From positions 5,208,001-5,272,000 of the forward strand of contig NC_091477.1 of assembly GCF_036971445.1 (NCBI RefSeq): 64,000 bases of DNA, given 5' to 3'. The DNA is from Narcine bancroftii. Lineage: Eukaryota. How positions within the stretch are numbered: position 1 is the first letter of the stretch; each line of letters opens with the position of its first letter. Under the pieces are notes generated by a model that saw only the letters and a program-made list of their open reading frames with translations, was not told where the DNA came from and made no database searches. The translations under genes and the position numbers were made by a program. Below are positions 2,676-54,741 of the stretch, piece by piece.

Positions 2676-2823
2676 ATTGTGCATTCATTAAATGTAACTG
2701 CTAAGTCAGACCTTGACGCTGCAGCTTTAAGAAGTGAAGAGTTTGCTGATTGGCCGACGTCCACTGTGCCTGCATTCACCAATCGGAAACTGGAATGGAA
2801 CTGGTGATCTGGACGGCCCCTTC
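2676..2823 (+). promoter_or_regulatory. Variable-exon 1 promoter module (CSE-equivalent region)
   Basis: ATTGTGCA 2676; GCTTTAAGAA 2724-2733; ATTGG 2749-2753; CCAAT 2779-2783; GTGATCTGGACGGCCCCTTC 2804-2823. Paralogous to six other promoters. Confidence 0.85.
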
Positions 2824-3082
2824 CACTCCCCAGCCATCATTACATACACTCAGAAGGACAATGAAAGAAGAGAGCGAGCAGTTCCGTCGGTTTTGTGCAC
2901 TGACCTTGCCGCAATTGTCGAAGAATTTGGCGCAAAATGCACACACAAATGAAATAAGTCAAACGGTTCGCAGAAGGGAGACGTGTTCCACACGCCGGTG
3001 AAACAAGAATCTAAAGAACCGTGAAAAGGATAATGCCTAGTACGGTCTTTTACTGACGTTTTAAGAAGGGGTTGGACTTGAA

Positions 3083-5524
3083 ATGAGGAATAACATATAT
3101 TTTTTGCTGAAATACAAACTATTCTATTTTGTGCTTTCCCCATGTTTTGGACAGATTCGATATTCAATTCCTGAAGAACTGCAAGCAGGCTCCATTGTTG
3201 GGAATATTGCTGCCGATTTAGGTTTCAATGTGAAACAACTGCCCGCTCGCAGTTTACGAATTGCATCTGGATCGAGCAGACAGTACGTAGACATAAATTT
3301 GAAGAGTGGTAATTTATTTGTGAAGGAAAAGATTGACAGAGAGGAGCTTTGTGGGCCGAAACACGGTTGTGTTTTATCCCTGGATGTGGTGGTGGAAAAC
3401 CCATTGAGCCTGTACGACGTGGAGGTAGAGATTAGCGATATAAATGACAACCCACCCAGTTTCCAGAAGAGCCAGATACGTCTTGAAATATCTGAGTTTG
3501 CGGCGACGGGGACGCGCTTTACTCTCGAATCCGCCCACGATCCGGACATTGGGATTAACTCGTTGCAAACATATGAGCTCCTTCCGAATGAACATTTTAC
3601 TCTAGATGTACAACTACGCAGTGGGAAAGGTATGTTGCCAGTGTTGGTGTTGCAAAGAGCCTTGGACAGAGAAATTAAATCAAAGCACATATTAAAGGTA
3701 ATAGCGAAGGACGGTGGTGTTCCAGTGAGGTCGGGCACGGTTCAGGTAGCCATCACTGTGAAAGATGTAAACGACAACACACCTGTTTTCCCTCAGTCGG
3801 TATATAGGGTGTCTTTACTGGAATCTGCACCCCAAGGAACGCTGATTATCAGATTGAACGCCACTGACTTGGACGACGGTCCAAACGGAGAAATAACGTA
3901 CTCCTTCAGTGGCCATAGTTCCACGGAAGTGCGCGAATTATTTGATGTGAATTCCAAAAATGGTGAAATCAGAGTTAAAGGATCTTTGGATTACGAAGAA
4001 AGCCGTGCCTTTGAGATTAATATCCAGGCAATGGACAAGGGATCTGGAGCAATACCCGAACATTGTGATGTTTTGGTGGACATCGTTGATGTGAATGATA
4101 ACGCACCTGAAGTGGAGTTACGATCGCTCTCAAATGCTGTTGCGGAAGACGCCCCCATTGGGACAGTCGTGGCTTTATTTGCGGCAACAGATAAAGACTC
4201 GGAACAAAATGGAGAGGTACAATGTCAAACTTCGAATCAACCAACCTTTGATCTTGATTCAACAAAGAATTACTATAAACTGCTCATTAATCACCCATTG
4301 GATCGCGAAAATATCTCCAGTTATGATGTCACCATAACTTGCACTGATGCAGGTAACCCTCCACTCACATCCAAGAAAACAATTCGGGTAGAAGTGTCGG
4401 ATGTAAACGACAACCCACCACGATTTCACGAGCCTGTGTATACAGCGAGGGTTAAGGAGAATAATATAATTGGGGATTTTATAATATCAGTACCAGCCTT
4501 TGATCCAGATGTAGGACAGAACGCTCGATTATTTTTCTCTATAATGCCGGCGGAGTTCCAGGGCACCTCAATCCTCACATTTGTCTCCATTAATTCACAA
4601 AGTGGCGAAATATTTGCTCAGATGCCTTTTGACTATGAACAATTTAAAAACTTTCAAATTCAGGTTCAGGTGCGGGATTCTGGAGTACCGCCTCTAACCA
4701 GTAACGTTACAGTGGATGTCGTTATCCTCGACCAGAATGACAATGCCCCAGTTATCTTAAATCCTTTGCCGGAATATGGGTCAACGGCAACAGAAACAAT
4801 ATCTCGGTTTGCAGAGCCTGGATATTTGGTGGTCAAGGTATCGGCCACCGATGCGGACTCTGGGGAGAATGCTCACATCTCCTATCATATTTTTGATGCT
4901 ACCCATTCTAATCTTTTTACTATTTCACCAGACACTGGAGAAATATGGACAATCCGTCAGATTATGAGCAAAGATTCATTTAAACAAAGGTTGGTGGTTG
5001 TGGTAAAAGATAATGGAATTCCGCCACTCTCCGCCACCCTGACTATAGTATTATCGATGGTGGACAGTAACAGTGGCAATAGCTTCTCTGGCGATGTTGG
5101 TTTCACTCCTGATATGAACCTTGCCTTGGTAATCGCCTTGGGGATTATCTCTGGCATTTTCCTTGTGCTTCTAATTATCCTTGCTTCTGTACTTCACAGA
5201 GATAGGAGCAGCCTGGGATGCCGGCACACATTAATTGGTGATTGTTGCTGCCTTCAAACAAGAAATTCTTTCGATGGAATTCAGAAGGCCAGTAGAAGTT
5301 TTCAGATACCACCGAACTATGTGGAGGTATTTGGGGGTGATCCGCTTTCCCAGCGTTTCCGATACGAATCCTGCTCAACATTGCAGTCGGTGAACAGAGA
5401 TGTCATCACTCCGAAAACTTACAGGTCGTGTTCGGAAAATAATTGCTCCCATAATGAGTCCATTATGAAGGAAAACAGCAGAGAAGTGAACTGTGATATT
5501 AATCGTAAGGCTGTAAATATAGAG
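3083..5524 (+). CDS. Pcdh: Clustered protocadherin variable exon 1 (signal peptide, EC1-6, TM, variable cytoplasmic domain); spliced to downstream constant exons not in window
   Basis: 833-aa ORF 3083..5584 with QIRYSIPEE start of EC1, DRE and DxNDNxP cadherin Ca-binding motifs, EC1 Cys-X5-Cys (CGPKHGC), TM LALVIALGIISGIFLVLLIILA. Phase-0 donor GAG|GTAAGG after 5524 (814 codons). Confidence 0.95.
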
Positions 5525-6899
5525 GTAAGGCGTTACGAATCAAAGGATAAGAATCTAGTTTTAAAAAAAAAACACAAAATGTGACAAATTTTCCGTAGGT
5601 AAGGGTGCACATGGAGGGAGAGATACCGAGTTCATGACTCAGGCGGAAGAGTTCATTTGAGATTAACATAAAAGCAGTTTTCCAATTGAAACGTTAAATA
5701 TTTATTTTCACACAAATGCAGCCTGACTTGCTGACTGGATGTAGCATGCTCCTTTTTCTTAAATTTGGTTTTCCACCATTTCAATTCTTTCTCGAAATCT
5801 TTCTGTAAACACTCACTGGCATTAAGATAAGTGGCACCTTATCATGGTCGAAGCGTCAGAATGGAAATTTCTGCCTGCCAGTCACTGTGCGTAATATTTT
5901 TAGAATTATTTTGGTGTGGCTATATTCCTTATTCCCGATTGCGCAAAGTCCAAGTAACATTGATAGCAATTTCTATTCATGTTTTCTGCTCCAGTCCCTT
6001 GGATGACCTCGTTAAGGCCACTCAAAGATAAACCGTTCCGCTTCTACTTCCATCAATACTATGCGTTAACTATTCATAGAGTTCTGAGAACTTTACCCAC
6101 GATTAAGCCTCAATTTTTTAATGAATTGGTAGAATATTTGTACTTCTGCTCTCTCAGGTAGATGCACATTTAAATGTTGTAAATATGTAGAAGATTAAAT
6201 ATTGCTCTTCTCTGAAGGACTACAGTTCGTCATCCATTAACAAGTCTGAAAACAAATCACCATGTCATTGTCATATTGTTCTTTCTGCGGACTAAATCCT
6301 GGAGTGCCCTTGTGCGCTAACTGCTCCATTCAGTCTTTGTAAAATTGCTCCATTCAGTCTTTACAAATTTTTAGAGATGGACATTGGCAACTTTCTGCAG
6401 TTGATCATTTTGTCGCAGGGGGCGGGGTTGGGGTAGGGGTGGGGGATATATCAGACATTGTACCCAGCTTTGCTCATACAGGAGTGTTATCTCCCAATTG
6501 GGTAATTTAAAAATATTTCTCCAAGTGATTGACCTGATCTAGGTGGTGAAAAGCTGCAGGGAATGTGTAGGCGGGCAGATTACAGTAGAATCCCTTGATA
6601 TGAAGGCTACTCAGCCTAACGTCACTTCTACATTTTATTTTTAAGTCCACCCACAGATATAATGGACGTTGGTCTTGTGAAACCAAATTAAATTAACGTA
6701 GACAACAATTCGTTGATATTTTCTACTACTTGCTGCTGGTTGAATGTAGATGGAAAACAGTGATTGTCTGAATTGTTCTTAGCTTTACGTTTAATGTCCT
6801 ATATTATCAAGTAGACGTGTGGACTGTTCTGTAAGAACACCAACAGCAAATTATTTTGGAGCCTATCAGGGCCGAAAGTAGATAACTTGTATAGAGGTA

Positions 6900-10928: not shown

Positions 10929-11074
10929 AATTGTGCAACAATAAATACATTTCTGCGTAATTTTAAGTTGACCTTGCTTTAAGAAACAAGGGATACGCTC
11001 ATTGGTCGAATATCAATGAGTTCCTCAACCAATCGGGATCTGAAATGTGGTGAGTGATCCTCACAGCCCCCTTC
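10929..11074 (+). promoter_or_regulatory. Variable-exon 2 promoter module
   Basis: AATTGTGCAAC 10929; GCTTTAAGAA 10976-10985; ATTGG 11001; CCAAT 11029; GTGATCCTCACAGCCCCCTTC 11054-11074. Confidence 0.85.
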
Positions 11075-11326
11075 AGGACACAGCGACCATCACGCAAAAT
11101 CAGACACAGAGAAAACTGGATTGCCACCAGCTCCAAGGGATTTTTGCAGGGATCTTTTCGCAACTGAAGGCAAAATGCGTGCATTTTAATGAAATAATTC
11201 GAGAGATTCGCAAGCGGTAAGGGCGTTTTTTGCACAGTACATTTTTTTTATTTAACGCCGACTCACGGGTTGAAGGACAATGGAGACAGTCTCGGCCTAA
11301 ATCCATTGGAATGACTTCTACTAGAA

Positions 11327-13783
11327 ATGAAATATAAAATATATTGGCTGCTAAAATGCCAGGCATTGTGCTGTGTGTTCTTCCCGTTGAGTCTTGTATC
11401 TGGCCTGATTCGTTATTCTGTCCCTGAAGAGCAGCAACTGGGAGCCTTTGTTGGGAATATTGCTGCCGATTTAGATTTAGACGTTAAGCTGCTGTCGGCC
11501 CGCGTTTTCCGAGTGGCGCCCGGACCAAGAAAGCAGTATTTCGACGTAAATCTGGAGAATGGTATTTTATTTGTGAAGGAAATAATTGACAGGGAGCTGC
11601 TTTGTGGATCGAATGTAGATTGCCGCTTATCCTTTGATGCTGTGCTTGAAAATCCTTTGAGCCTTTACCAGGTGGAAGTGGAGATCCTCGATGTAAATGA
11701 TAATGCCCCCGTTTTCCCAAAAAGTCAGTTTCGCCTTGAAATTTTGGAATCTGCGGCACCGGGAATGCGATTTCCCCTTGAGCCCGCACTAGATCCGGAT
11801 ATTGGAACGAACTCCTTGCAAACCTACCAGCTACCTTCGAACCAATATTTTACTCTCAACGTACAAACGCGCAGAGGAAAGGGGACGCGGCCAGTGTTGT
11901 TGTTACAGAAACCCTTGGATAGAGAATCCATATCTATCCACAATATTACGCTAACAGCCAAGGACGGCGGCTTGCCTCCGAGATCTGGAATGGTTCAAAT
12001 TATAATCACAGTGCAGGATGTAAATGATAACTCGCCTGTTTTCTCTCAGTCTACTTACAAGGTTAGTCTATTTGAAAACGCAGCGAAAGGTGCCTTAATC
12101 ATCCGGTTAAACGCCACTGACCTGGATGAAGATGACAATGGAGAGATAATGTACTCATTCAGTAGTCATATTTCTGCCACAGCTCGTAATCTTTTCGCTA
12201 TAAATCCAAAAACAGGTGAAATCAGGCTCAAAGGGAACTTGGATTATGAAGAAAACACTGCCATTGAGATTAACATACAAGCAAAAGATAAGGGTCCTGG
12301 CGCTATCCCTGAGTACTGCGATGTACTGGTCGAAATTACTGATGTTAATGACAATCCACCAGAGGTGACATTACGGTCTTCCACAAGTACAGTTCCTGAG
12401 AACGCTCCACTCGGCACCGTGCTGGCTTTATTTAGCGCAGAAGACAGAGACTCCGGAGAAAATGGTGATGTACATTGTCAAGTCTCAAAGCTTTTGCCAT
12501 TTAAGTTGGATTCATCGATTAAAAACTATTACAAAATTGTTATCCAGGATTTGTTGGATCGCGAAACGATCCCCAAATACGATATTCCTATAATATGCAC
12601 GGATTCAGGGAACCCATCACTCACTTCTAGAAAAACTATCCGAGTTGAGGTTTCAGACATAAATGACAACACGCCGACATTTACCCGCCCCGTATACACT
12701 GCAAATGTTCACGAAAACAATGGTATAGGGGCTTCTATATTTTCGGTGACTGCCTTCGATCCAGATGCTGGACAAAACGCTCGTCTGAACTTTTCTATCC
12801 TTCCATCTCAAATTAAGAATTCCTCAATAACTTCTTATGTCTCCATTAATTCAGCGACTGGTGTCCTGTATGCTCAGAGAGTATTTGACTACGAGCATCT
12901 GAAAACATTCCAGATTCATGTTGAAGTGCGAGATTCTGGTGCGCCAGAACGAAGCAGCAATGTTTCCGTCAATGTTGTGATCCTTGATCGGAATGACAAC
13001 GCTCCAGTGATTACACAGCCTTTACCCGAATATGGGTCCACAGCAATAGAAACAATATCCAGGTTTGCAGAACCAGGATATTTGGCTGTCAAAGTAAATG
13101 CCATGGATGCCGACGCTGGTCAGAATGCTCATCTCTCTTATCAGATTTTCCAGGATACCCGCCAGAGCCTTTTCACAATCTCCTCAGACACGGGAGAAAT
13201 TTGGACTGCCCGTCCAATTTTAAGCAATGATGCCTCTACTCAAAGGCTTGTGGTTGTTGTAAAAGATAATGGAATTCCAGCCCTCTCCGCCTCCGTGACG
13301 ATAGTATTTTCTGTTGTTGGGACGAACAGTGAAACGTTCTCCAGTGTCATCAGTTCTTCGTCAGATCGCCGCTTCAGACCTGAGCTGAGTCTTTCATTGG
13401 TTATTACCTTGGGAATTATATCTGCCACATTCCTCATAATTGTAATTATCCTTGCCGTTAAAGTTTACGCAAGCAGGAATGGTGTGTACGAGCAACAATC
13501 CCTGAGTACTTGTTGTTGCTTTGAATCAAGAAATTCTTTGAATGGAATTCAGAAGGCCAGCAAAAGTCTTCAGATAGCACCCAACTATGTTGATGTATTT
13601 GGGGGTGATCCACTCTCCCAAAGATTTCGCTACGAGTCATGTTCGACATTGCAGTCGACCAAGAGAGATTTTATTGTTCACAACAGGTTTAGAACTTCTG
13701 CAGACAACAACTGTGTGCTGAATGAATCGATCAGGAAAGATAGTTCTGTGATGGTGAATTCTGAAAATCACAGCGTCCCTGGG
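11327..13783 (+). CDS. Pcdh: Clustered protocadherin variable exon 2
   Basis: 839-aa ORF 11327..13846, six EC repeats, CGSNVDC, TM, conserved cytoplasmic motif. Phase-0 donor GGG|GTGAGT after 13783 (819 codons). Confidence 0.95.
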
Positions 13784-14939
13784 GTGAGTTACCTTTCGAT
13801 AAAGAAGAAAATCCTCACGGGTTTTATACGGATGCACGCAATATGAATGAATCAGATCCAGAGGTAAATCATTGTGACTCTCTAACTAAAACATCAATTA
13901 TTGAAAATCGGGAAGAAAAGAAATGTCTTCATCCATATTGAGCAGAGGAGTTGGCGTTTACTGGGAGAGAAACTCCGACCTATTTTGCAGGTGCGCTTTC
14001 ACATATAAAATGCAGCCTGCTCTAATGCAAAATTTAAAATGTGGTTATCTGGCATTGCTTTTCATGACTTCTTTCTGTGTTACAGATTTTTTTTTCCAAA
14101 CAAAATTTGTTTTTATTGTGATAGTTCTGGGACAAAGATTTTATGTAACCATGTAATCGTCATTCAAGAAGTTGTTTTTTTTTAATAGCCGTAGTTTTAA
14201 AAAGTATTTTTAATTCCGCTTACTGACATTATCATCTGTTGTTCAATTGATAACACACACAACTGGAACAGTTCTGACGGATCAAAAGGCAATTGACATG
14301 TTTGTCATCCAGTCTGGCACTGTGCATTTGCTGCTCCCGATGTAGTATCTTCTACATTTTTAAAGATAAATGTTGATTGAGTGAGCACTTTGCAGGATAT
14401 TTCAGTCATCATGTTGACCCTATGCTTGCAGTTTCCCTTCACTTTATTTAAGCACTCTACCTTCAACCTTAACTTTGGGCAACTTCCTTTTAAAGGCGCA
14501 CAATGTAACCTTGTAGAATAGTATCTCATCGTTACTGTCTGCACATTTCAACCTCGTATCTCAATTCAAAAATGTCAGACAACCACCATTTTGTTTTTCC
14601 ATTAGATCAGGCCAGATCAGGCAAGTACAAACATCGTTGTTCTGTATCGCATGCTACAATGTTCTATTTTCTGATTAAATGGCCTTTCATCTTGCAGGAT
14701 ATAATGTCCCCGAGCTGCCGAATAAGTGCTACTATCTAACGTGTCCTCACCTCCACTCATTCACGCACTATAATATTACTGTGTCATAACACGACTGTTC
14801 AGAAGAACGCAAGAAGCAGCAGAAGACCACTCAGCCCTTCAACCCTACCCTTCCCCCATTCAATTGGGGTTATAGCCTCTCAATGATAATATCTGTGGTA
14901 GCACCACTAGACCTGTGTACAGCAATATAGAACAATTCT

Positions 14940-19375: not shown

Positions 19376-19524
19376 AATTGCACAACCATAAATACAATAG
19401 TTCTGTTCAACTTTAAGTAAGTGTAGCTTTAAGAAAACATGGAGAATCCTGATTGGTCGAATATCAATGCGTTTCTGCACCAGTCAGGAGGCGAGGTGTG
19501 ATGAGTGATCCGCACAGCCCCTTC
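19376..19524 (+). promoter_or_regulatory. Variable-exon 3 promoter module
   Basis: AATTGCAC 19376; GCTTTAAGAA 19426-19435; ATTGG 19452; CCAGT (variant CCAAT) 19480; GTGATCCGCACAGCCCCTTC 19505-19524. Confidence 0.85.
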
Positions 19525-19777
19525 AGGACTCAGCGGCCATTATTGAAGATCAGACAGAGAGAAAACTAGATGACCAACAGCTCGGTGGGTTTTGCGCAAG
19601 ATTCCTCTCGCAACACAGCCAAAACAGGAGAATTTGAATCAAATAATTCGGGAGAATCGCAATAGGCATGAGTATTTTTTGTACAGCTTTTGTTCTATAT
19701 TACGCCGACGTACTGTTAAAAGGATAACAAAACAATACCATCTGGGCCTGAAAGCACTGGAATGACTTCCACTGGAA

Positions 19778-22231
19778 ATGAGATATAAAATATATTGGTT
19801 GGTAAAATGCTATTTGTTGTGCTGTGTGTTCTCCCCGTGGAGTATTGTGTCTGGGCAGATTCGTTATTCTGTCCCTGAAGAGCTGCATCTGGGAGCTTTT
19901 GTTGGGAACATCGCTACCGATTTAGCTTTAGATGTAAAGCAACTGTCCGATCGCAATTTGCGGATAGCGCCCGGACCAAGAAAGGAGTATTTCGGCGTAA
20001 ATTTGGAAAATGGGATTTTATTTGTGAAGGAAAGAATCGACAGAGAACTGATTTGTGGGTCGAATCTCGATTGTAGTTTATCTTTTAACGTTGTATTTGA
20101 AAACCCCCTGAGCTTGTATCCAATTGAAGTGGAGATTCTCGATGTAAATGACAATGCACCCGGTTTTCCAAACAGCACGTTTCGTCTTGAGATCGTGGAG
20201 TTGGCGACACCAGGAATGCAATTTCCCGTTGAACCCGCATACGACCCGGACATTGGTAGTAACTCGTTGCAAAGCTACCAGCTACAGCCGAGCGAATATT
20301 TCACTCTCGATATACAAATGCGCAGTGGGAAAGAAAGGCGGCCAGTATTGTTGCTGCAGAAGCCTTTGGACAGAGAAACGGTGGCAACACACAACGTAAC
20401 GCTGATAGCAAAGGACGGTGGTTTGCCTCCTAGATCGGGAACAGTTCAGATTGTAGTTATAGTGAAAGATGTGAACGACAACGCGCCTGTTTTCTCTCAG
20501 CCCACTTACCGAGTCAGTCTGTTGGAATCTGCACCGAAAGGGACACTGGTCATCACATTGAACGCCACTGATCTGGATGATGGCCTCAACGGAGAGATTA
20601 TATATTCTTTCCGTCGCCATATTTCTTCTACAGCAAGAAAACTCTTCCATCTGAACTCCAAAACTGGTGAAATCAGACTCGGTGGGAAATTGGACTATGA
20701 AGAAAACAATGCCCTTGAAATAAAAGTACAAGCAATGGATAGGGGTTCGGGCGCTGTTCCCGAGTACTGTGATGTATTGGTCGAAATTATTGATGTGAAT
20801 GACAATCCGCCGGAGGTGACATTAGGGTCTTCGTTAACTACAGTATCGGAGGACGCACCACCTGGCACTGTTGTTTCTCTTTTCACCGTAGAAGACAGAG
20901 ACTCCGGGCAAAATGGTCAGGTACACTGTCAAATTTCAAAGCAACTGCCTTTTAAGCTATTTTCATCCATAAGAAACTATTATAATATTGCCATAGAGCA
21001 TGCGTTAGATCGCGAAAATACCGCCAGCTATGATATTTTTGTAAGGTGCACGGATGCAGGTGACCCTCCTCTGACTTGTAAGAAAAGCATCCGCGTAGGG
21101 GTTTCAGACATAAATGACAATGCGCCAAAGTTTTCCCGACCCGTATTCACGGCAAATGTTCAAGAAAACAATGGCATTGGGGCTTCAATACTTTCATTGA
21201 CTGCCTTTGATCCAGATGTTGGACAAAACTCTCGACTGACATTTTCGATCCTGTCGCCGCAAGTTTGGAATTTCTCAATAACCTCTTATGTTTCGATTAA
21301 TCCAGCCACTGGTGTCCTTTATGCTCAGAGAGCTTTTGACTACGAACAACTGAAAAGCTTTCAGATACAAGTTCAAGTGCAAGACTCTGGTACACCAGCA
21401 CTCAGTAGTAACGCTTCCGTCAATGTTGTGATCCTAGATCAGAATGACAACGCTCCCGTGATTATACAGCCATTACCCGAATATAGATCAACATCAACAG
21501 AAATAATATCAAGGTTTGCAGAACCAGGATATTTGGTTTTAAAGGTATCAGCCACTGATGCGGACGCTGGACAGAACTCTCGACTCACTTATCAGATTTT
21601 TCAGGATACCCGCCATAGCCTTTTTACAATTTCCGCAGACACGGGCGAAATCTGGACCATCCGTCCAATTTTGAACAACGATAATTCTAACCAAAGACTG
21701 ATGGTTGTAGTAAAAGATAATGGAATTCCATCACTCTCTGCCACTATGACAATAGTATTATCTGTGGTTGGGACGGATAGTGAAACATTATCCAGTGTCA
21801 GCACTTCTTCGTCAGATCGCAGGTTCAGACCTGAGCTGGGTCTCTCGTTGGTTATTGCCTTGGGAATAATATCTACCATTTTCCTCTTAATTGTAATTAT
21901 CCTTGCCGTTAAAGTTTACTTGAATAGTATGGTGTACGAGCAACAGTACCCGAGCACGTGCTGTTGCTTTAAATCAAGAAATTCTTTGAATGGAATTCAG
22001 AAGGCCAGTAGAAGTCTTCAGATAGCACCAAACTATGTTGAGGTATTTGGGGGCGATCCGCTCTCGCAAAGATTCCGCTACGAGTCATGTTCGACATTGC
22101 AGTCTTCCAAAACAGATTTCATCGTCCCGAAGCGGTGGAGACCATCTACAGAAAATAACTGCGCGATGAACGTATCTTCCGGGAGTGACAACGCTGAAAT
22201 GATGATTTCTGGAATGTATTATGTTCCTGAG
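19778..22231 (+). CDS. Pcdh: Clustered protocadherin variable exon 3
   Basis: 820-aa ORF 19778..22240, six EC repeats, CGSNLDC, TM. Phase-0 donor GAG|GTGAGA after 22231 (818 codons). Confidence 0.95.
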
Positions 22232-23229
22232 GTGAGATGATTTTAAACAGAGAAGAAAATCTTCATTGTTTTTTTTTGGAAACACGAGGATTTGGCAGAA
22301 GCATCGGTGTTTAGATATATAAAGTACGGAAATATATTGAGCGGTTATTCTGTATATATTTTTCTTTAGATGTGTTATAGAATAATAAATATAACTAATT
22401 GTAGTGTGTTCATAGCAACACACATCCGCAATAATTATTTTTATTCCACAGATGCTGGTTTTTCTGCTAAATCCAATAATCGCTTTTTACCACATATTTG
22501 CCCAAACCAAACTGTGCTGTGCTTAACCACGTCCATCATTTCCCTTCTCACTAACGAAGCCCAACAAACCTCCAGGCCTCCCTTTGGCAGCACCGTTATG
22601 ACACCTCCACACGTCATTTCCCATTCTATCACGGAGATGCACTTTTTTTCTCTGCGCGCAAAACCATGTTTTGATGTGTAAATTGTTTTTTTTTATAAAC
22701 TACATGTGTCATTGCTTCCATACCCTCACCAAATATGTGGCGTTGCTTGTAGAGTATCCTTAACGCTTCTGCTCATTATGAACTCCTCTTAGTTTAAATC
22801 TTTATTTTTCTGGAGAAATTGGCATAATAATATTAATCTGCTCATTCGGAGAAAACGTCCTTTACACAAATGATGTTTTTACATCTTATTCCTCCTAAGA
22901 TCAGACATAATTAGCATATTGATACTCCCTGGACCAAAATAAAAAGCATCATCCAAGAGGAAAATCGTTATTAACAAATCAGCATTTTCAAATCATATTT
23001 TCTTGTTTTATTACACATGGGATTGGTAAAGAGCGTTTGGACAATTTGCTTGTGGTATCTGGTTGGAAATGTGCAGGAATATTTTAATTGCGTTGTAATT
23101 TCCTCAAACGAACGTCAAAATGTAAACGCCATTAGAAATAAATTGTTTCCGACATGTGGTGCTATGGTCGTCTACATTCCAAAATTGAACGGTTCATTGT
23201 GGAGGGATCAGCTACTGTGTCGTTGTTGC

Positions 23230-30435: not shown

Positions 30436-30586
30436 GGTTGTACAGCAAAAAATAAATCAGCTATGTATCAATGTAAGCACTTCTTGCTTTAAGAAATTAG
30501 CTGTCCTCCGATTGGTACTTTGTGACTGCTACGTTATTTACCAATCAGAAGCTGAGATGTGGCTGGTGATCTGCACAACCCCCTTC
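30436..30586 (+). promoter_or_regulatory. Variable-exon 4 promoter module
   Basis: GCTTTAAGAA 30486-30495; ATTGG 30511; ACGTTATTTACCAAT (degenerate CGCT box) ending 30545; GTGATCTGCACAACCCCCTTC 30566-30586. Confidence 0.85.
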
Positions 30587-30823
30587 ACTACACAGCCGCC
30601 ATCACTTAAGACCAGATGCCGTGCAAACTGGGTATCAAGCAGCGTCCGAGCATTTTGCACGGTTCAAGTCGAGGGTCAACGCAACAGAAGATTTAAATGA
30701 AATCAGTGAAAAAAAATCGCAAGGTATAGGCATCTTCTGCATTGTATTTGCCTCATTTTAAATGAAATTGCTGTTTAAAGGCATTGTCTCTGGTTAAAAC
30801 CATTGGAATGATTTCTCCTGGAA

Positions 30824-33286: not shown

Positions 33287-34084
33287 GTGAGCTTCCAAAG
33301 AGAACAAAAATCGTCAAATCATTAAATTGGAAACAAACATACATTTGGGAAATGTGGGTCGTTTTAGTTACAGTTACTGACATCACTAGGTGGAAAATCT
33401 TGCTGCGTTTACTGCTTACAGACAAGCTGCCAAATTTCTTTATATTTTACAGTACACATAATTGTAGCGATTATTAGTAAATTGAAAACATTTATCCAAT
33501 GCCCTGGGATCCTTCTGATTATCTTGATGCCTTTGCAGCTCTCTAGCCCCCATCCCCATTCACTTTATCTTCTCTGTGACAATTACAAACATGCAGTTTA
33601 AAGTGCAAGTTGCAGACACAATGAAAGTTAACCTGGTAGATGTTTTGAAACATGGTATTTGTTATACTACATGGTGTTCTATGGTATTTGAAAGCAAAAT
33701 AGTGTTGCCAGCCAGGTCATTAAAATCGATTGGTTCATTTCTTGTCACTCTCTTTGGAGCGCAGTCATCCCATGCATAGTTTTTATATCCTGTTATTAAT
33801 AAGGGTAGAATGTGCACAACAAATGGAGGTCTCCAGGAACATTTGGGTAACATAGTAACCTTAGCATTCAAGTCCACGTATTTTTCAAGGTGAAGAAGGC
33901 ATGTGGGGTTCCGGGTTTAATTTGCCATGGGGTATGCTATACGACCATGGAGGCTATGGTACAGTTTTGTACAATATTAGCTAGGCAATCACTAAATTAT
34001 AAGAAATTGTGGTCAATGTAAGATAAAAATATGTGATTGCACTGGAAGGTGTAGAAAACATTCGTTACGACATTAAAGACGCAA

Positions 34085-38575: not shown

Positions 38576-38726
38576 AATTGTGCAACTTTTAATGCAGCAA
38601 TATCCCGCGCAACTTTACATGCTTCCAGCTTTAAGAAATGAGCAGAACCCTTATTGGTCGAATAGCAATGAGTTCTTCTACCAATCGGGAACAGAGATGT
38701 GATGAGTGATCCGGACAGCCCCATTC
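38576..38726 (+). promoter_or_regulatory. Variable-exon 5 promoter module
   Basis: AATTGTGCAAC 38576; GCTTTAAGAA 38628-38637; ATTGG 38653; CCAAT 38681; GTGATCCGGACAGCCCCATTC 38706-38726. Confidence 0.85.
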
Positions 38727-38974
38727 ACGACACCGCCACAATCACGTAAGATCAGACACAGTGAAAACTGGATAGCAAGCAGCTCCGTGGGATTTTTTTT
38801 TACAGAAATTGCCTCACAACTGCAGGCACAATGCGACTATTTGAATGAAATAATTCGAGCGATTCGCACGAGGTACGGGTCTTTTTTTTTGTCGGGTTTG
38901 TTTCTACACTTTGTTGAAAGGACAACGAACAATACTGTCTGGAACCGAAACCACTGGAATGACTTCCACTGGAA

Positions 38975-41434
38975 ATGAGATATAACATATATTGGTTTCT
39001 AAAATGCCACGTATTGTGCTTAATGTTCTCTCCGTGGGTTCTTGTATCTGGGCAGATTCGTTATTCTGTCCCTGAAGAGCTGCAACCGAGAGCCTTTGTT
39101 GGGAATATTGCTGCCGATTTAGATATAGACGGAAAGCTGTTGTCTGCTCGCGGTATGCGGATAGCGCCCAGTTCAAGGAACCAGTATTTCGGCATACATT
39201 TGGAGAGTGGGATTTTATTTGTGAAGGAAATAATCGACAGGGAACAGCTTTGTGGATCGAATCTCGATTGCCGTTTATCATTTGATGTTGTGGTTGAAAA
39301 TCCATTGACCCTTTACCAGGTAGAAGTGGAAATTCTCGATGTTAATGACAATGCTCCCAGTTTCCCGAAAAGTCAGTTTCGTCTGGAAATCTATGAGTCT
39401 GCGGCACCAGGGATGCGATTTCCCCTTGAACGCGCACACGATCCGGACATTGGCAGCAACGCTTTGCAAACCTACGACCTCCAGCCGAACAAATATTTTA
39501 TTTTGGACCAGCAAACGAGCAGCTGGAAGGGCAGACGGCCGATATTGTCCCTACAGAGGTCCTTCGACAGAGAATCTGCACCAATCCACAATTTAACGCT
39601 AACAGCTAAAGACGGGGGTACACCTCCGAGATCAGGAACGGTTCAGATTATGGTCATTGTGCAGGATGTAAACGACAACTCTCCTGTCTTTTCTCAGTCC
39701 GTTTACAGGGTTAGTCTGTTCGAAAATGCACCAAAGGGAAGCCTGATCATCAGATTGAACGCTACTGATCTGGATGAGGGTGCAAATGGGGAGATAAGGT
39801 ACTTTCTGAGCAGCCACATTTCTACAACTGCCCGAAAGCTTTTTGATGTCAACCCAAAAACGGGCGAAATCAGACTCAAAGGGCATTTAGACTATGAAGA
39901 AAGCAGCGCCATTGAGATTAACATCCAAGCAGTAGATAAAGGTTCCGGTGCTATACCCCAGTACTGTGATGTATTGCTGGATATTATTGATGTGAATGAT
40001 AACGCGCCGGAGGTGACGTTTGGTTCTTTGTCAAAGACAGTTTCCGAAGACGCTACTCTTGGGACGGTAGTGGCTCTGTTCACTGCAGATGACAGAGATT
40101 CCGGACAAAATGGTGAGGTACATTGTCAACTTTTAGATCAGCTGCCCTTCAAACTAGATTCATCTCTAAAGAGATATTTCAAAATTATTGTACAACAGTC
40201 ACTGGATCGTGAAAGCAACCCCAAGTATGATATAACTATAACATGCACCGATTCTGGGAACCCTCCTCTCACTTCCAGAAAAACGTTTAGCATAGAAGTT
40301 TCAGATATAAATGATAATGCTCCAAAGTTTTCACGCTCGGAATACACAGCCAATATTCAAGAAAACAATGAGATTGGAGCATCCCTGCTTTCCATAACGG
40401 CTTTCGATCCAGATGTGGGTGGAAACGCCAAGCTGGGCTATTCTATCCTGCAGTCTCAAGTTGAGAATTCTTCAATAAACTCTTTTGTCTCAATGAATTC
40501 AGCCACTGGTGTCCTTTATGCTCAGAGAGTGTTTGACTATGAACAACTGAAACATTTCCAGATCCAAGTTGAAGTGCGAGACTCTGGCACGCCAACACTC
40601 AGCAGTAATGCTTCAGTGAATGTTGTGATCCTTGATCAGAATGACAATGCTCCCGTGATTAAACAGCCTGCTCCCGAACACGGATCCATAGCAACAGAAA
40701 CAGTATCCAGGTTGGCAGAACCTGGATATTTGGTTCTTAAGGTATCTGCCACTGACTCCGACGCTGGTCAGAATTCTCGACTCTCTTATCACATTTTTCA
40801 GGCGACCAGTCACAACCTTTTTACAATTTCTGCAGACAGTGGCGAAATTTGGATTATTCGTCGAATTCTGAGTAAGGAAGCCTCTTCTCAAAGGCTGGTG
40901 ATTGCCGTAAAAGATCATGGAATTCCCTCACTCTCTGCCACTATGACTGTAGTATTATCTCTGGTTGAGACTGGTAGTAAAACGTCCTCCAGTGTCAGCC
41001 AGTCTTCTGCCGATCCCAGGTTCAGGCCTGAACTGAGCTTTGTCTTGGTTATAGCTTTTGGATCCATATCTATCATGTTTCTCGCAATTGTAGTTATTCT
41101 CGCCATTAAAGTTCACAAAAACAGAAATGGTGTTGTATACCACCACCGTACCCTAAGTACTTGCTGTTGCTTTGAAACGGGAAATTCATTGGTTGGAATT
41201 CAAACCGCCAGCGAAAGCCTTCAGATACCATCAAATTATATTGAGGTATTTGGGGGTGACCCGCTCTCCCAAAGATTCCGCTATGAGTCTTGCTCGACAT
41301 TACAGTCTACCAAGAGAGGTTTCATCGTCCCCAACATACATAGAACCCCTGCAGACAAAAACTGTGTGGTGGGAGAAACTACTGCAGAAGAATCTGCTGG
41401 AATATTGATTTCTGAAAAATCCAATGTTCACGAG
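38975..41434 (+). CDS. Pcdh: Clustered protocadherin variable exon 5
   Basis: 822-aa ORF 38975..41443, six EC repeats, CGSNLDC, TM. Phase-0 donor GAG|GTGAGG after 41434 (820 codons). Confidence 0.95.
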
Positions 41435-41944
41435 GTGAGGTAATTTTAAAGCGAAAGGAAAATTATCATATTTGTAAACACGAGTATTTTGGCGAATTAC
41501 ATATATATATATAATTTTGGCGAATATATATGTACATACATTTGTTGTTATTTAAAGCAGTAACTATATTCTGGTTTCAAACGCTTAAGCTATCGCCGGG
41601 ATATTTAGGTGCATTTTAATCGGACTCATCAATACACCCAGCTGTCGAGCTATTAATAACTTGAACCTTCCATGTGAAAATCAATATTCTTATTCTTCGT
41701 ATCACGCGTGTTGTATTCGGTGTCTACGTTGTAGCTTCCTCTAAATTGGCAGGCATGAATACCCCATCCCTGTCACTTGGGAGCCCCACACTTTCTCTCG
41801 CTCTTCACTTTATTTTGGAATTTCACTCCCGCTCTAACTTTACGCATCTCCACAATTTCAACGAGGTCCAACAAAAGATGGTGAAACAACACACATTTTG
41901 TCTCTGTAGGGTAAACCCTCGTTACTAACGATAACCACGCTTTC

Positions 41945-44200: not shown

Positions 44201-44206
44201 GAACAG

Positions 44207-47183: not shown

Positions 47184-47289
47184 AGTTTAGAACCTAATAC
47201 GTTTTGGGTATTTTGAATTGAATTCAATCGTGCCATGTACAGTGAAACACATTTTTTGAATGCAATCCACACTTTAGTACATAGATTAA

Positions 47290-47551: not shown

Positions 47552-47680
47552 TTATGTACTTTTAATCGTGATTTTGAAAAACCTTTCTTCATATTTGATC
47601 TATTGATTCCAGTTGTTCTTGAAACGTAGGGCTATCTTTCAAAAAAAAATTGAAAGGTCGAAACGGTTGAAATAAATTTC

Positions 47681-47820
47681 AATTGTGCACCAATAAAGGT
47701 GCGCATTGAAGCAGTTCTCGCTTTAAGAAATGATGTGTAATCTGATTGGTCAGCTATGACTGCTGCGCTGTCCACCAATCAGAAGTCTAGATGTGACCGG
47801 TGATCTGCACAGCCCCCTTC
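47681..47820 (+). promoter_or_regulatory. Variable-exon 6 promoter module with canonical CGCT-box CSE
   Basis: AATTGTGCAC 47681; GCTTTAAGAA 47720-47729; ATTGG 47745; CGCTGTCCACCAATC 47766-47780, resembling the vertebrate Pcdh conserved sequence element; GTGATCTGCACAGCCCCCTTC 47800-47820. Confidence 0.88.
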
Positions 47821-48052
47821 CATGCCCAGCCGCCATCACGTAAGATCAGACGCCTTGAAAACCCGACAGCCAGCAGCTGCGGAGGATTCCTGCAGGATTC
47901 GGCCCGCAACACGAAAAGAAATAAATGAAATTAGTCTCACAATTCGCAAGAAGGTACAGATATATTCAGCCTCGTATTTGTCCCTTTTAAAGGGAGTCGC
48001 TGTCAAAAGGCATTGTCTCGGGTTGAAACAAATGGAATGAATTCTCCTGGAA

Positions 48053-50515
48053 ATGAGAGATAATATACATTGGCTGGTGAAATACCAACTATTTGGCTGT
48101 TTATTCGGCCACTGGATTCTCGTTTCTGCACAGATTCGATATTCTGTTCCTGAGGAACTGCAAGCGGGTGCCTTTGTTGGGAATATCGCAATTGATTTGG
48201 GTTTGGGTCTGAAGCAGCTCTCGGCTCGCAGTTTGCGGGTGGCGCTCGGTCCGAGGAAACGGTATGTGGACGTGAATTTGGAAAATGGCCTTTTATTTGT
48301 GAATGAAAGAATTGACAGAGAACAACTTTGCGGCTCGAGCAACGATTGCGTTTTATCCTTAAGCGCTGTGCTTGAAGATCCCCTCAGCCTGCACCAAGTG
48401 GAAGTGGAGATTCTCGATGTAAATGACAACGCTCCCAGCTTCCCGAAAAGCCAGGTCCGCCTTGAAATCTCCGAGATCATGACGCCGGGAGCGCGATTCC
48501 CTCTCGAGGCCGCACGCGATCCGGACATTGGAACTAATTCCTTGCAGACCTACCAGCTCTTTCCGAATGAATATTTCATTGTTGATGTCCAAACACGCCA
48601 TGGAAAAGGAATGCTTCCCGTATTGGTTCTACAAAAACCTTTGGATAGAGAAACAATGCCAAACCACGAGTTAACGTTGCTCGCCGAGGACGGCGGAGTC
48701 CCTGTGAGATCGGGCAGGCTTCAGGTAACTATCGAAGTGCAGGATGCCAACGACAACATTCCTGTTTTCTCGCAGTCGGTTTATCGAGTGAGCCTGCTCG
48801 AATCATCTCCCACCGGTACACTGATCATTACGTTAAACGCCACTGACTTGGACGATGGAACCAATGGAGAGATAACGTACATGATCAGTAGCCATAGTTC
48901 TGAAAATGTTCCTGAATTATTTCGGATCGATTCTAAATCTGGCGAACTTCGACTGAAAAGGCGCTTGGACTATGAACAATGCAATTTTTTTGAGATTAAT
49001 GTGCAAGCAGTCGACAATGGCCCTTACGGAATTCCACAACACTGTGATGTTTTAGTTGATGTTATCGATGTGAATGATAACTCCCCTGAAATCACGCTGT
49101 CATCTTCAATAAATACAGTCTCTGAAGATGCTTCAGTCGGTACGATAGTGGCATTGCTCCGTGTAGAAGACAAAGATTCTGGAGAAAATGGTGAAGTGGT
49201 GTGTCAAATTCCAAGTGAAGTGCCGTTTAAACTGGATTCATCCATGGAAAAGTTTTCTCGTCTGATTTTACAGCATCTACTGGATCGCGAAACGACTTCA
49301 AGGTATGACATTACCATAACATGCACAGATGCAGGGAACCCCGCTTTAACATCCAGAGAAACGGTTCGTGTAGATATTTCAGATATAAATGACAACGCCC
49401 CAATGTTTACGCAACCTATGTACATGGTCAATGTCATGGAGAACAACGTTAGAGGCGCTTCAATCTTCTCTATGAGCGCATTTGATCAGGATGTAGGAGA
49501 AAACGCCCGTCTTAACTTTTCTATCCTGCCATCACTAGTTGAAAACTCCTCCATTGCCTCTTATATTACTATAAACTCAGAGAATGGAGTGTTATTTGCT
49601 CAGAGGTCTTTTGACTACGAACAATTAAAAGAATTTAAGGTTTACGTTCAAGTGCATGATTCTGGATTTCCACCGCTAACCAGTAACGCTTCAGTGCATG
49701 TTGCTATACTTGATCAGAATGACAATGCCCCGGTGATCGTGAACCCTTTGCTCAAATATGGATCAACAGCAACGGACACAATATCCAGATTTGCAGAACC
49801 TGGGAACTTAGTTATCAAGGTATCAGCCACTGACGCCGACGCCGGTCAGAATGCTCGACTGAATTACTTTATTTTTGAGGCCACTCACCCCAATCTGTTT
49901 ACGATTTCTACAGGCACAGGGGAAATTTGGACTATCCGTGGATTTGAGAGCAAAGATGCCTCTAAACAAAGGCTGGTGGTGGTCGTGAAAGATGATGGTA
50001 TTCCATCACTTTCAGGCACAGTAACCATTGTACTATCTGTGAAAGGAAGTGAAACATTCTCCAGTGCAACTAGTTTATCCAAAGATCGTGACTTCTCTCC
50101 TGATCTAAACTTTTACCTGGTCATAGCCTTGGGGACAACTTCGTTGATTTTTCTCGTGGTTTTAATGATCCTCGCTGTTAAAGTTCATAAAAGCAGAAAT
50201 TGCGTGGGACGACAATACAATTCTCCGACTCTTTGTTGGTGTTTCACAACAAGAAATCCTTTGACTGGAATCCAAAAGGCCAGTAGAAATCTCCAGATCC
50301 CACCGAATTATGTTGAGGTTTTCGGAGGGGATCCACTTTCTCAACGCTTCCGATATGAATCGTGTTCAACATTGCAGTCCGTCAAGGGAGACTTCCCGTC
50401 TCGACAAACGTGCGGGCAGTCCGCTGCTATGCAGTATGTCCAGAAAAAATATGTTGAGAATAAAAATGCAGGGACGACCAAGCTGGAAGAATCTAATTGC
50501 AGTGTAAACATTGAG
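48053..50515 (+). CDS. Pcdh: Clustered protocadherin variable exon 6
   Basis: 825-aa ORF 48053..50530, six EC repeats, CGSSNDC, TM. Phase-0 donor GAG|GTAAGG after 50515 (821 codons). Confidence 0.95.
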
Positions 50516-51429
50516 GTAAGGTACTGGTGAAAATAAGCAAAAGAGTTAAATATTTAATTTGGATGCGTAAATTAGGAAATTTGGCTAAATCTCTAAAATG
50601 ACACTGATAAAATGTGATCATTTTTGGTGCGCAGGCAACTTACAATCCACGTGTTCATTTTCTTTAGGTAGTTGTTTTACAAGGCATTGTACCCTTTTTA
50701 CGCTAAAATGTAAGTCCAAAACATTTTACACCGGCATTGTTAAATGCCACATTTCTCCATGTTTCGTTTGAAGTTGATAAGCCAACCACTGAAATATCTC
50801 TCTGTCGAGAGATATTTGCAAGCATTCAACTTAATAAGCATTTTTCAGTCAGTGTAGATATTTGATGTGAAAGCAGAGCAGGGTTCCAAGCAGGCGGTTA
50901 AAATCCCTTGGTAAGTTTCCTTCACAATATTTTCCACACAATCGTCCAAATTAGTTATTTTATATGCTGCTTTGTCAGATCATCCCAGATTGATCAATGT
51001 ACATTTTATTGCAAAAGTAAAGAAAACCTGCAGATACTGGAAAATGAAATATCAGAGGAAAATGCTGGCAAATACTCAAAAAGATTATCATAACATGGAG
51101 AGAGGGACAAGTGGAAGCATTTCACGGTGATGAACAGATCACATTGGGTTGAAAAGTTTTCAATCTGAAACGGTAACAATAGTCCATAACAAACTTTGAA
51201 TAACTCCTGTGAATTTAAACCATCACGGGAGGGAACGATCGTATTTATTGTCACAGCATATACATGACATCACATACAACCCTGAGATTCTTTTTCCCGC
51301 GTTGGAAGCAGAATTACCACTTCAGCAGACATATACCGAGCAAACTATGATCAAAGAAATCCAGATACTTATAATGGGTGTGTTGACGAATAAGACAAAA
51401 ATTAATAGGTTATTGATATTTGCTCTTGA

Positions 51430-52225: not shown

Positions 52226-52396
52226 GACTTCTTTACAAAACATAAGCAATACGGTGACAATATACTCATATGTACATTCGGGAAACTTGGTGGTTATCAT
52301 CAGGCAATATTCTATTCCTCAAATTAGAAGTGTCAGGTTGGAGAATTATTTCATTATCCAAGGATTTGGTATATGTTGTCATCTTCCTGGAGTCCA

Positions 52397-52590
52397 CGAC
52401 GCCATTACAGCGTCAGCCACCTGGGTTCGAACCCGGCGCAGTCTGTTCTCCCCTGTTTGCGTGGACTTTCCTAGAGTGTTCCAGTTTCTTCCCACCTTCC
52501 GCACCGTAAGGAATTGTGGGTTAATTTCAGTATAATTGGGCGGCAGGGCTTTAAATGGCCGGAATGGGCTTCTTTCGGGCTGTAAATAGA
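52397..52590 (+). mobile_element. V-SINE (HE1-like), partial
   Basis: GGGTTCGAACCC B-box, GTTTGCGTGGACTTTCC...TTCCCAC, GTGGGTTAATT...AATTGGGCGG; paralogous to 47290..47551. Confidence 0.75.
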
Positions 52591-53971: not shown

Positions 53972-54309
53972 CAATGTTTTTCAAACATTTTTCTTTCCAA
54001 TCGCACCCCACCTTAACTAATCCCTATGACATAGGTGCTCTGTGCTTAGTAAGGGATTACTTAAGGTGGTATGTGACCAGAAAGAAAAAAATTGAAAATC
54101 AATGTTGTAATCGTACCTAATGGGCGAATGACAATTTTTCTGAAGCAAAATATTTCAGTAACAATTGGGTCCAGAGCATTGGATTTTACTCGTTTTTCCC
54201 CCACTCACATACCACTTTAAGTAATCGCTTATTAATTACAGAGCATCTATGGTTAAGGGATTACGTAAAGTGGTATGGGAGTGGAAATAAAAAAGTTTGA
54301 AAACCACTG
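53972..54309 (-). mobile_element. Composite (dimeric) hAT MITE
   Basis: Two MITE units (53972-54104, 54177-54309) around a spacer; the whole is flanked by a perfect 8-bp TSD GTGTAAAT (53964-53971 and 54310-54317). Confidence 0.88.
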
Positions 54310-54589
54310 GTGTAAATTATTAAGATACGGTTCTAATCTAAAACTAGATCACCTCAATGAAATCAAGTAACAATTCCTTCTTCTAGGCTTAGAGATGAGT
54401 GCGTCTCGAGAGCGAATAGTTGCTGTAAATACAAGGGGTGCATGTGTCATCCATAGAATTGAATGCTGAACCACCATGATATTTCCATTGCAGTTCAAAA
54501 GAGATTCTCCATATTAGATTTCGAAACACGGAAGGGTGGACATTCGCGAGAAATGAAAAAGAGCTGTCAGAAAGGTTAAAATATCTTTT

Positions 54590-54741
54590 AATTGTGCAAC
54601 CTTAAATACAGCAAATATTCTGCGCAACTTTAGATACTTCCAGCTTTAAGAAAAGACCAAAATCTTGATTGGTGGAATATCATTGAGTTTCTCCACCAAT
54701 CAGGAGCTGAGATACGATCGGTGATCCGCACAGCCCCCTTC
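54590..54741 (+). promoter_or_regulatory. Promoter module of pseudogene exon 7 (intact)
   Basis: AATTGTGCAAC 54590; GCTTTAAGAA 54643-54652; ATTGG 54668; CCAAT 54696; GTGATCCGCACAGCCCCCTTC 54721-54741. Confidence 0.85.

What the first reader, a model, noticed from the sequence alone, without database searches (positions are those of the whole stretch)
2676..54741. Rigidly spaced multi-part promoter grammar repeated before every variable exon, largely without the classical CGCT box
Seen in all seven promoters, about 230-400 bp upstream of the ATG: (A)ATTGTGCA ... GCTTTAAGAA - 15 bp (16 in exon 3) - ATTGG - 23 or 25 bp - CCAAT - exactly 20 bp - GTGATCYGSACAGCCCC(C)TTC, usually followed by a CACGYAAGATCAGAC..GAAAAC-like block. 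Spacer sequences diverge but their lengths do not. Established: mammalian Pcdh promoter choice relies on a CTCF-bound conserved sequence element with a CGCT core, and CCAAT boxes bind NF-Y. Here only promoter 6 has CGCTGTCCACCAATC (47766). The others have CGTT or no recognisable box at that position, while the inverted ATTGG/CCAAT pair (a 10-bp perfect inverted repeat TCTGATTGGT/ACCAATCAGA in promoter 6) is nearly invariant. Inference: promoter identity in this lineage may be encoded by an NF-Y pair plus other factors rather than the canonical CSE.
Basis: partly seen in the sequence, partly recalled or inferred. Interest (0 to 1): 0.75.

Follow-up and report, generated by a model that had tools for sequence, protein, structure and literature searches.

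The report
Shared CCAAT-pair promoter of ray protocadherins
Each of seven tandem neuronal cell-recognition (protocadherin) exons of an electric ray is preceded by the same conserved promoter, built around two back-to-back CCAAT boxes and lacking a recognisable copy of the CTCF site that mammals use to pick one such gene, which hints, untested, that cartilaginous fish switch these genes on differently.

Summary
The block is real: 7 of 7 variable exons of a batoid (Narcine-type) protocadherin nu-like cluster carry a 128-131 bp core, GCTTTAAGAA - ATTGG - CCAAT - GTGATC...CCCC - YCAGA. The seven copies represent only three old lineages. Between lineages the motifs are 72-100% invariant against 27% for synonymous sites, while spacers and the CGCT position sit at neutral level, so the motifs are under selection. 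13 of 14 boxes have full NF-Y-type flanks and are spaced so that two trimers fit. No promoter, not even promoter 6 with its CGCT, has a forward CTCF core there (recalled matrix). Corrections: ATTGTGCA is exact in 5 of 7 and not rigidly spaced; one CCAAT is CCAGT; 23 versus 25 bp is one lineage event; rigidity against flanks is only marginal (p 0.06-0.08); the inverted repeat is a by-product of two NF-Y sites; invariant elements cannot encode identity. A reverse CTCF half-site in the GC block remains a rival. Loss of CGCT is known in zebrafish, Xenopus and mammalian C-type promoters; an NF-Y pair was not found in my searches. No binding or start-site data.

The parts
2724..2854 (+). Promoter core 1 (lineage A): GCTTTAAGAA 2724, ATTGG 2749, CCAAT 2779, GTGATC 2804, TCAGA 2850; upstream ATTGTGCA 2676
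3083..5584 (+). Variable exon V1 ORF (833 aa when read through the donor)
10976..11104 (+). Promoter core 2 (lineage B): ATTGG 11001, CCAAT 11029, GTGATC 11054; upstream ATTGTGCA 10930, next to an assembly gap
11062..11080 (-). Best CTCF-matrix hit of the whole window, reverse orientation, inside the GC block of promoter 2 (p 3.8e-6; E 0.49 for the window, 0.024 for the promoters)
   Evidence: recalled matrix
11327..13846 (+). Variable exon V2 ORF
19426..19554 (+). Promoter core 3 (lineage B): ATTGG 19452, CCAGT 19480, GTGATC 19505; upstream ATTGCACA 19377
19778..22240 (+). Variable exon V3 ORF
30486..30616 (+). Promoter core 4 (lineage C): ATTGG 30511, CCAAT 30541, GTGATC 30566; upstream GTTGTACA 30437
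30824..33325 (+). Variable exon V4 ORF; branch length 0 to a Narcine bancroftii protein (P0002)
38628..38756 (+). Promoter core 5 (lineage B): ATTGG 38653, CCAAT 38681, GTGATC 38706; upstream ATTGTGCA 38577
38975..41443 (+). Variable exon V5 ORF; donor GAG|GTGAGG after 41434; contigs of two runs leave the genome at 41438
47720..47850 (+). Promoter core 6 (lineage C): ATTGG 47745, CGCT 47766, CCAAT 47775, GTGATC 47800; upstream ATTGTGCA 47682
48053..50530 (+). Variable exon V6 ORF: signal region, cadherin repeats, TM, Cadherin_C_2
54643..54770 (+). Promoter core 7 (lineage B): ATTGG 54668, CCAAT 54696, GTGATC 54721; upstream ATTGTGCA 54591
54998..57417 (+). Variable exon V7, pseudogene: six frameshifting indels and a stop at 55800

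Best explanation
The block is the common core promoter of elasmobranch nu-type protocadherin variable exons. It was copied with each exon by tandem duplication (shown) and its motifs have been held by purifying selection since before the three lineages split, which predates the divergence of electric rays, sawfish and skates (shown by conservation and a quick tree). Two NF-Y trimers most likely bind the divergent ATTGG/CCAAT pair (inferred from flanks and spacing); the 15 and 20 bp spacers are about one NF-Y footprint, placing unassigned factors on GCTTTAAGAA and the GTGATC-GC block at its edges (inferred); transcription would start near the invariant CAGA about 70 bp after the forward box (inferred, no data). 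There is no forward CTCF core, so the block gives every exon the same activatable promoter and not an identity; choice, if any, is made elsewhere.
For: Homology among the repeats is confined to promoter plus exon. Fourfold-degenerate identity 0.41-0.49 between, 0.61-0.66 within lineages. Three-lineage invariance: GCTTTAAGAA 10 of 10, reverse box 7.3 of 10, forward box 7.8 of 10, GTGATC block 8.7 of 12, against 27% for synonymous sites; spacers 2.5 of 12 and 5.0 of 17; CGCT position 0 of 4. 13 of 14 boxes score p<1e-4 with a recalled NF-Y matrix and are among the top 21 hits in 64 kb; the 13 exact pentamers have better flanks than the 147 other CCAAT/ATTGG in the window (p 5e-9; 6 of 147 reach the promoter minimum). 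With the -7/+17 footprint given in PMC4982600 (passages) both trimers fit with 9-11 bp free, ending 2-3 bp from GCTTTAAGAA and 7 bp from GTGATC in all 7. CCAAT boxes usually lie 60-100 bp before the start (PMC4889920, passages); CCAAT to YCAGA is 70-71 bp in 7 of 7. CTCF score at the CSE register p 0.18-0.65 in 7 of 7, against 1e-4 for a human alpha6 CSE primer and 7e-4 for one teleost-like locus.
Against: All binding claims rest on matrices recalled from memory; no ChIP, EMSA or start-site data. Blocks were chosen because they are conserved, so their p-values are inflated, and there are only three independent lineages. Indel counts in the core are lower than in flanks only at p 0.06-0.08. One of two teleost-like control loci with a CGCT also fails the CTCF matrix (p 0.21), so a true CSE can be missed. 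The GC block matches a reverse CTCF half-site better than column shuffles (58 and 15 of 1500). One contig of a probable RNA run spans all of promoter 5 from 38596, so the block is at times transcribed and the proposed start is unproven. The common NF-Y pair class is a direct repeat at 31 bp, not a divergent pair.
Confidence: 0.58

Rival explanations
1. CTCF still anchors these promoters, through the GC block read on the reverse strand (AGGGGGC half-site) or through a degenerate CSE that the matrix misses; the CCAAT boxes are accessory.
For: The reverse block is the best CTCF hit of the window in promoter 2; matrix columns 9, 11-15 and 18 match in 6-7 of 7; shuffle p about 0.04 for the mean and 0.01 for the best single. 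A teleost-like CSE also matches mainly in the 3' half. Skates have an oriented CTCF code mined with MA0139.1 (PMC10115646, passages). A CGCT element is cited for elephant shark (PMC2926608, passage).
Against: The two most informative CTCF columns (5 and 10) match in 2 and 4 of 7; the invariant GTGATC lies outside the core; the C run is one shorter in promoters 1 and 3; scores in the other six are only p 3e-4 to 1.5e-2. Orientation would be opposite to mammalian promoter sites.
Confidence: 0.18
2. The pentamers are bound by other CCAAT-like-site factors, or the key factor is a long zinc-finger protein on the GTGATC block, and NF-Y is not the driver.
For: GCTTTAAGAA and the GTGATC block are as conserved as the boxes or more so and are unassigned; promoter 3 tolerates CCAGT.
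Against: Flanks on both strands fit NF-Y beyond the pentamer.
Confidence: 0.11
3. The shared block and its spacing are mostly left-over duplication homology or gene conversion, not a selected grammar.
For: The whole stretch from the upstream motif to the ATG aligns (64% mean column identity); 23 versus 25 bp follows lineage; rigidity is marginal.
Against: Motifs far exceed synonymous-site identity while spacers between them are at neutral level, a pattern conversion would not give; 100 bp upstream of the block is at chance identity (0.22-0.25).
Confidence: 0.07
4. The block is conserved as part of a transcribed leader or splice region rather than as a promoter; true starts lie further upstream.
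For: One contig covers 38596-38985 with 28 unaligned letters before an AG that looks like an acceptor.
Against: One contig of one run, no strand, letters not seen; that AG is not kept in all promoters; double-stranded NF-Y-type sites on both strands fit DNA binding.
Confidence: 0.06

Closest known systems
Conserved sequence element (CSE, CGCT box, CTCF site) of mammalian clustered Pcdh promoters (PMC3333863, PMC7811963; passages)
   Same: One conserved element a few hundred bp before the ATG of every variable exon; promoter 6 shares 8 of 9 bases with the 3' part of a human alpha6 CSE primer.
   Different: CGCT in 1 of 7; no forward CTCF core in 7 of 7; the conserved columns are two CCAAT boxes and two unassigned motifs. 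Whether mammalian CSEs also run into a CCAAT could not be checked.
CGCT-less or CSE-less Pcdh promoters: zebrafish alpha, Xenopus alpha, Xenopus gamma2 15-36 with their own 13-bp motif, mammalian alpha-c2, gamma-c4, gamma-c5, beta1 (PMC4978886, PMC7811963; passages)
   Same: Whole groups of variable exons without the CGCT box, in the Xenopus case with a substitute motif and related to C-type isoforms. The ray ectodomains score higher on gamma-C4 and alpha-C2 than on alternate isoforms of like length.
   Different: The substitute here is a 130-bp multi-motif core with an NF-Y-type pair; the Xenopus motif is shown only in a figure and could not be compared.
Elephant shark protocadherin nu subcluster (Yu et al. 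2008; not held, seen only as cited in PMC2926608, PMC4978886, PMC2764143)
   Same: nu8, 9, 15, 17 are 58-60% identical to V6; sawfish relatives of these exons end in a constant region homologous to that of nu17.
   Different: A CGCT element is cited for that cluster; which subclusters carry it, and whether CCAAT boxes were noted, I could not read.
Promoters with paired NF-Y CCAAT boxes (PMC4982600, PMC4889920; passages)
   Same: Two full-flank CCAAT boxes 28-30 bp apart with neighbours at fixed distance.
   Different: The described class is a direct repeat at 31 bp; here the pair is divergent, the rarer arrangement in that study.

Membership tests
Clustered protocadherin nu-type variable exons | Tandem, same-strand, about 2.4 kb single exons encoding cadherin repeats, TM and variable cytoplasmic part | tested here: met
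Clustered protocadherin nu-type variable exons | Closest relatives carry the nu-type constant region | tested here: met
   (through sawfish relatives; constant exons are not in the window)
Clustered protocadherin nu-type variable exons | Variable exon spliced to constant exons | tested here: inconclusive
   Contigs of two runs of one study leave the genome at 41438 with 21 and 18 loose letters, as a splice to an exon beginning GTGA would give; letters not shown
Vertebrate Pcdh CSE (CTCF site) | Conserved element roughly 200-300 bp before each ATG | tested here: met
   forward box 278-304 bp before the ATG
Vertebrate Pcdh CSE (CTCF site) | CGCT box | tested here: not met
   1 of 7; 0 of 4 columns invariant across lineages
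Vertebrate Pcdh CSE (CTCF site) | Forward CTCF core ending in the box | tested here: not met
   p 0.18-0.65 in 7 of 7 with a recalled matrix; controls 2 of 3 positive
Vertebrate Pcdh CSE (CTCF site) | Second forward CTCF site in the exon (alpha-type eCBS) | tested here: inconclusive
   best forward hits in the first 1 kb p 2e-4 to 1e-3, near chance
Vertebrate Pcdh CSE (CTCF site) | CTCF bound in vivo | not testable with these tools
   needs ChIP or CUT&Tag
NF-Y CCAAT-box promoter | Pentamer with NF-Y flanks | tested here: met
   13 of 14 at p<1e-4, recalled matrix
NF-Y CCAAT-box promoter | Spacing allows two trimers | tested here: met
   9-11 bp free between footprints
NF-Y CCAAT-box promoter | Box 60-100 bp before the start site | tested here: inconclusive
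   candidate CAGA 70-71 bp away, but no start-site data
NF-Y CCAAT-box promoter | NF-Y bound and required | not testable with these tools
   needs EMSA, ChIP, reporters
31-bp direct-repeat CCAAT dimer class | Both boxes in the same orientation | tested here: not met
   divergent in 7 of 7
NRSE/REST element of fish Pcdh clusters | TTCAGNACCANGGACAG | tested here: not met
   2 three-mismatch hits in the window, 1.7 expected, none in a promoter

The most novel reading that the evidence does not exclude
The elasmobranch nu cluster is an expanded C-type-like family whose promoters are driven by a fixed NF-Y-centred core without a forward CTCF anchor (or with a flipped one), so cartilaginous fishes express their protocadherin isoforms without the CTCF-loop promoter choice of mammals, for instance together or by cell type; stochastic CTCF-based barcoding would then not be universal among jawed vertebrates.
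Probability: 0.25. Interest if true: 0.78.

Novelty: new variant of a known kind. Interest (0 to 1): 0.45.

Why it matters
CTCF-anchored promoter choice is the textbook basis of protocadherin neuronal barcodes. A whole subcluster in the sister group of bony vertebrates with a conserved promoter but no forward CTCF core gives a direct test of whether that mechanism is ancestral or a bony-vertebrate elaboration, and names the factor (NF-Y) and the two unassigned motifs to test. If CTCF does bind, the finding shrinks to one more lineage-specific CSE variant.

Tried and rejected
No whole genome is held, so other subclusters, constant exons and enhancers were not seen. The ray pattern had 0 matches in metagenome contigs; a protein scan gave 2 teleost-like Pcdh loci out of 179 candidate stretches, neither matching the ray promoter profile; viral contigs gave 0 of 12. 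No RNA holder is on record; the three runs laid are guessed RNA, contigs only, one study, and only 38300-58200 was laid; thin or missing cover of V6 and V7 is no evidence. The 10-bp inverted repeat in promoter 6 was rejected as a separate feature: it follows from two NF-Y-type sites on opposite strands. NRSE reading of GGACAGCCCC and CTCCGTGG rejected. Promoter 7's survival is uninformative, because V7 broke recently (second-position to synonymous divergence 0.37-0.41 against 0.37-0.39 for intact exons). No tandem repeats, no Rfam hit. The careful tree did not finish; the quick tree used 6 window exons and 38 of the 120 listed hits, picked by hand. Literature: clustered protocadherin + CCAAT + CTCF + conserved sequence element gave 0 papers; protocadherin + NF-Y + CCAAT + Pcdh gave 6, none on this by title and abstract start, one checked by passage; one search listed no Pcdh paper with NF-Y; searches gave no full CSE sequence or cartilaginous-fish promoter study. 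Yu 2008 and Yin 2017 are not held; one search opened an unrelated paper. The probe file of PMC3333863 and one supplement each of PMC7087399 and PMC4978886 could not be read and may hold CSE flanks. Earlier findings held nothing on this locus.
Full report
Setting. The window holds six intact single-exon cadherin ORFs of 820-839 aa on the + strand and one broken one. V6 has the Pfam layout of a clustered protocadherin variable exon. Its best hits are ray and shark proteins; V4 has branch length 0 to a Narcine bancroftii protein, and elephant shark nu8, 9, 15, 17 are 58-60% identical to V6. Sawfish relatives end in a constant region homologous to that of nu17. This is a batoid nu-type subcluster. 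No whole genome is held.

Observation. GCTTTAAGAA, ATTGG and GTGATC are exact in 7 of 7, CCAAT in 6 of 7 (CCAGT in promoter 3), with spacers of 15-16, 23 or 25, and 20 bp. The fixed part runs on to a YCAGA 45-46 bp after GTGATC, giving a 128-131 bp core; outside it distances vary: 38-52 bp from the upstream motif, 78-98 and 128-144 bp downstream. ATTGTGCA is exact in 5 of 7. The composite pattern has 7 matches and none in 100 shuffles.

Is it more than duplication? The seven units are three lineages: V1; V2, V3, V5, V7; V4, V6. Fourfold-degenerate identity is 0.41-0.49 between and 0.61-0.66 within them, and each lineage has sawfish or skate members in a quick tree of 44 rows (the careful search did not finish). 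Homology covers only promoter plus exon. Across one member of each lineage, 27% of synonymous sites are invariant, against 10 of 10 for GCTTTAAGAA, 7.3 and 7.8 of 10 for the two boxes, and 8.7 of 12 for the GTGATC block; the spacers (2.5 of 12, 5.0 of 17) and the CGCT position (0 of 4) are at or below neutral. The motifs are therefore selected, though they were picked after the fact. Rigidity is weaker evidence: 23 versus 25 bp is one lineage event, and 3-4 indels in the core against 23-24 in flanks gives p 0.06-0.08; core indels are 1-2 bp, flank indels up to 17.

NF-Y. With a matrix recalled from memory, 13 of 14 boxes score p<1e-4 and fall among the top 21 hits of the window; their flanks beat the 147 other pentamers (p 5e-9). 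Using the -7/+17 footprint stated in PMC4982600 (passages), both trimers fit with 9-11 bp free, and the footprints end 2-3 bp from GCTTTAAGAA and 7 bp from GTGATC. PMC4889920 (passages) places CCAAT 60-100 bp before the start; the invariant CAGA lies 70-71 bp after the forward box, a candidate start only. The perfect inverted repeat of promoter 6 is what two such sites on opposite strands produce.

CTCF. The CGCT box is read by zinc finger 3, and promoter sites face forward (PMC7811963, passages). A published human alpha6 CSE primer (PMC11667065, supplement table) scores p 1e-4 with a recalled CTCF matrix; the ray promoters score 0.18-0.65 at that register, promoter 6 included, which matches 8 of 9 bases of the primer's 3' part and 1 of 11 of its 5' part. 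Of two teleost-like loci fetched as controls one scores 7e-4 and one 0.21, so the test can miss. The same matrix family was used on skate (PMC10115646, passages). Against my reading, the GC block read in reverse is the best CTCF hit of the window in promoter 2 and beats column shuffles modestly (58 of 1500 for the mean, 15 of 1500 for the best single); only its AGGGGGC half is shared, and the two most informative columns match in 2 and 4 of 7. No convincing forward exonic site and no NRSE was found.

RNA. Three runs of one study, guessed to be RNA and held as contigs, were laid on 38300-58200. Contigs of two runs leave the genome at 41438, four bases after the V5 donor, as splicing to a constant exon starting Val-Lys would give; the loose letters were not shown. 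One contig spans promoter 5 from an acceptor-like AG, and one ends 28 bp before promoter 6. Neither fixes a start or a strand.

Mechanism. Shown: a duplicated, selected 130-bp core; NF-Y-type flanks; no forward CTCF match. Inferred: two NF-Y trimers with neighbours at footprint distance open a TATA-less promoter common to all exons (0.58). Being the same everywhere, it cannot carry identity. Rivals: hidden or flipped CTCF site (0.18), other factors (0.11), residual homology (0.07), transcribed leader (0.06).

Comparison. Loss of CGCT is in print for zebrafish and Xenopus alpha promoters, and Xenopus gamma2 15-36, related to gamma-C4/C5, have a substitute motif (PMC4978886, passages). Mammalian alpha-c2, gamma-c4, gamma-c5 and beta1 have no CSE, and C-type genes are not chosen stochastically. 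V6 and V2 ectodomains score higher on gamma-C4 (390, 405 bits) than on alpha-4, gamma-B7, gamma-A1 or beta-8 chains of like length (381-311), and highest on PCDH10; this is similarity, not phylogeny. A CGCT element in elephant shark is cited in PMC2926608 (passage); the source paper is not held and may already describe part of this block. Searches found no NF-Y pair in clustered Pcdh promoters; most subscription papers are outside the library.

Verdict. Real and selected, a new variant of the repeated Pcdh promoter element, with a testable but unproven link to CTCF-independent expression. Interest 0.45.

Noticed in passing
window 54998-57417: V7 has six frameshifting indels (20, 2, 1, 1, 7, 2 bases) and a stop at 55800 but no excess second-position divergence, so it broke recently.
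   Followed up: yes
window 38596-38985: A contig of a probable RNA run spans all of promoter 5 and has 28 unaligned letters before an acceptor-like AG at 38596-38597; possibly a splice from an upstream exon.
   Followed up: partly
window 47321-47692 and 42992-43720: Two intergenic contigs of equal depth (about 25) in run X1; the first ends 28 bp before GCTTTAAGAA of promoter 6, as a divergent transcript might. Contigs give no strand or start.
   Followed up: partly
window 46169-47074 (-): 301-aa ORF in a very high-copy repeat, no Pfam hit; resembles the end of a LINE ORF2 (recalled).
   Followed up: partly
window 15902-15920 (-) and 34444-34462 (-): Intergenic reverse CTCF-like sites (p 2e-5 and 9e-6, recalled matrix); about 1-3 such hits are expected by chance.
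   Followed up: no
window 31265 and 48494 (-): Reverse CTCF-like site 441 bp into V4 and V6 (p 8e-6), weaker in V2; may be a coding by-product.
   Followed up: partly
16 bp before the ATG of V2-V7: An out-of-frame upstream ATG in a conserved GGAATGA stretch in 6 of 7 leaders.
   Followed up: no
upstream motif, e.g. window 10930, 19377, 38577, 54591: In lineage B the motif reads TTG-TG/CA-CAA, a palindrome like a C/EBP-type bZIP site (recalled); promoter 3 carries the flipped form.
   Followed up: no
55-58 bp after the forward CCAAT: CCAT in 5 of 7 (GCCGCCATC in promoters 4 and 6), like a YY1 core (recalled); a YY1 site is mentioned beside the human alpha6 CSE.
   Followed up: no
L001 248-266 and 346-362: A teleost-like Pcdh promoter with a CSE-like GGTGGCGCTA and a reverse NRSE-like site.
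   Followed up: partly
window 10782-10927 and 62487-62643: Assembly gaps; the first abuts promoter 2.
   Followed up: no
promoters and first 1 kb of exons: CpG observed/expected 0.67-1.07, against 0.54-0.96 in the 1 kb upstream.
   Followed up: no
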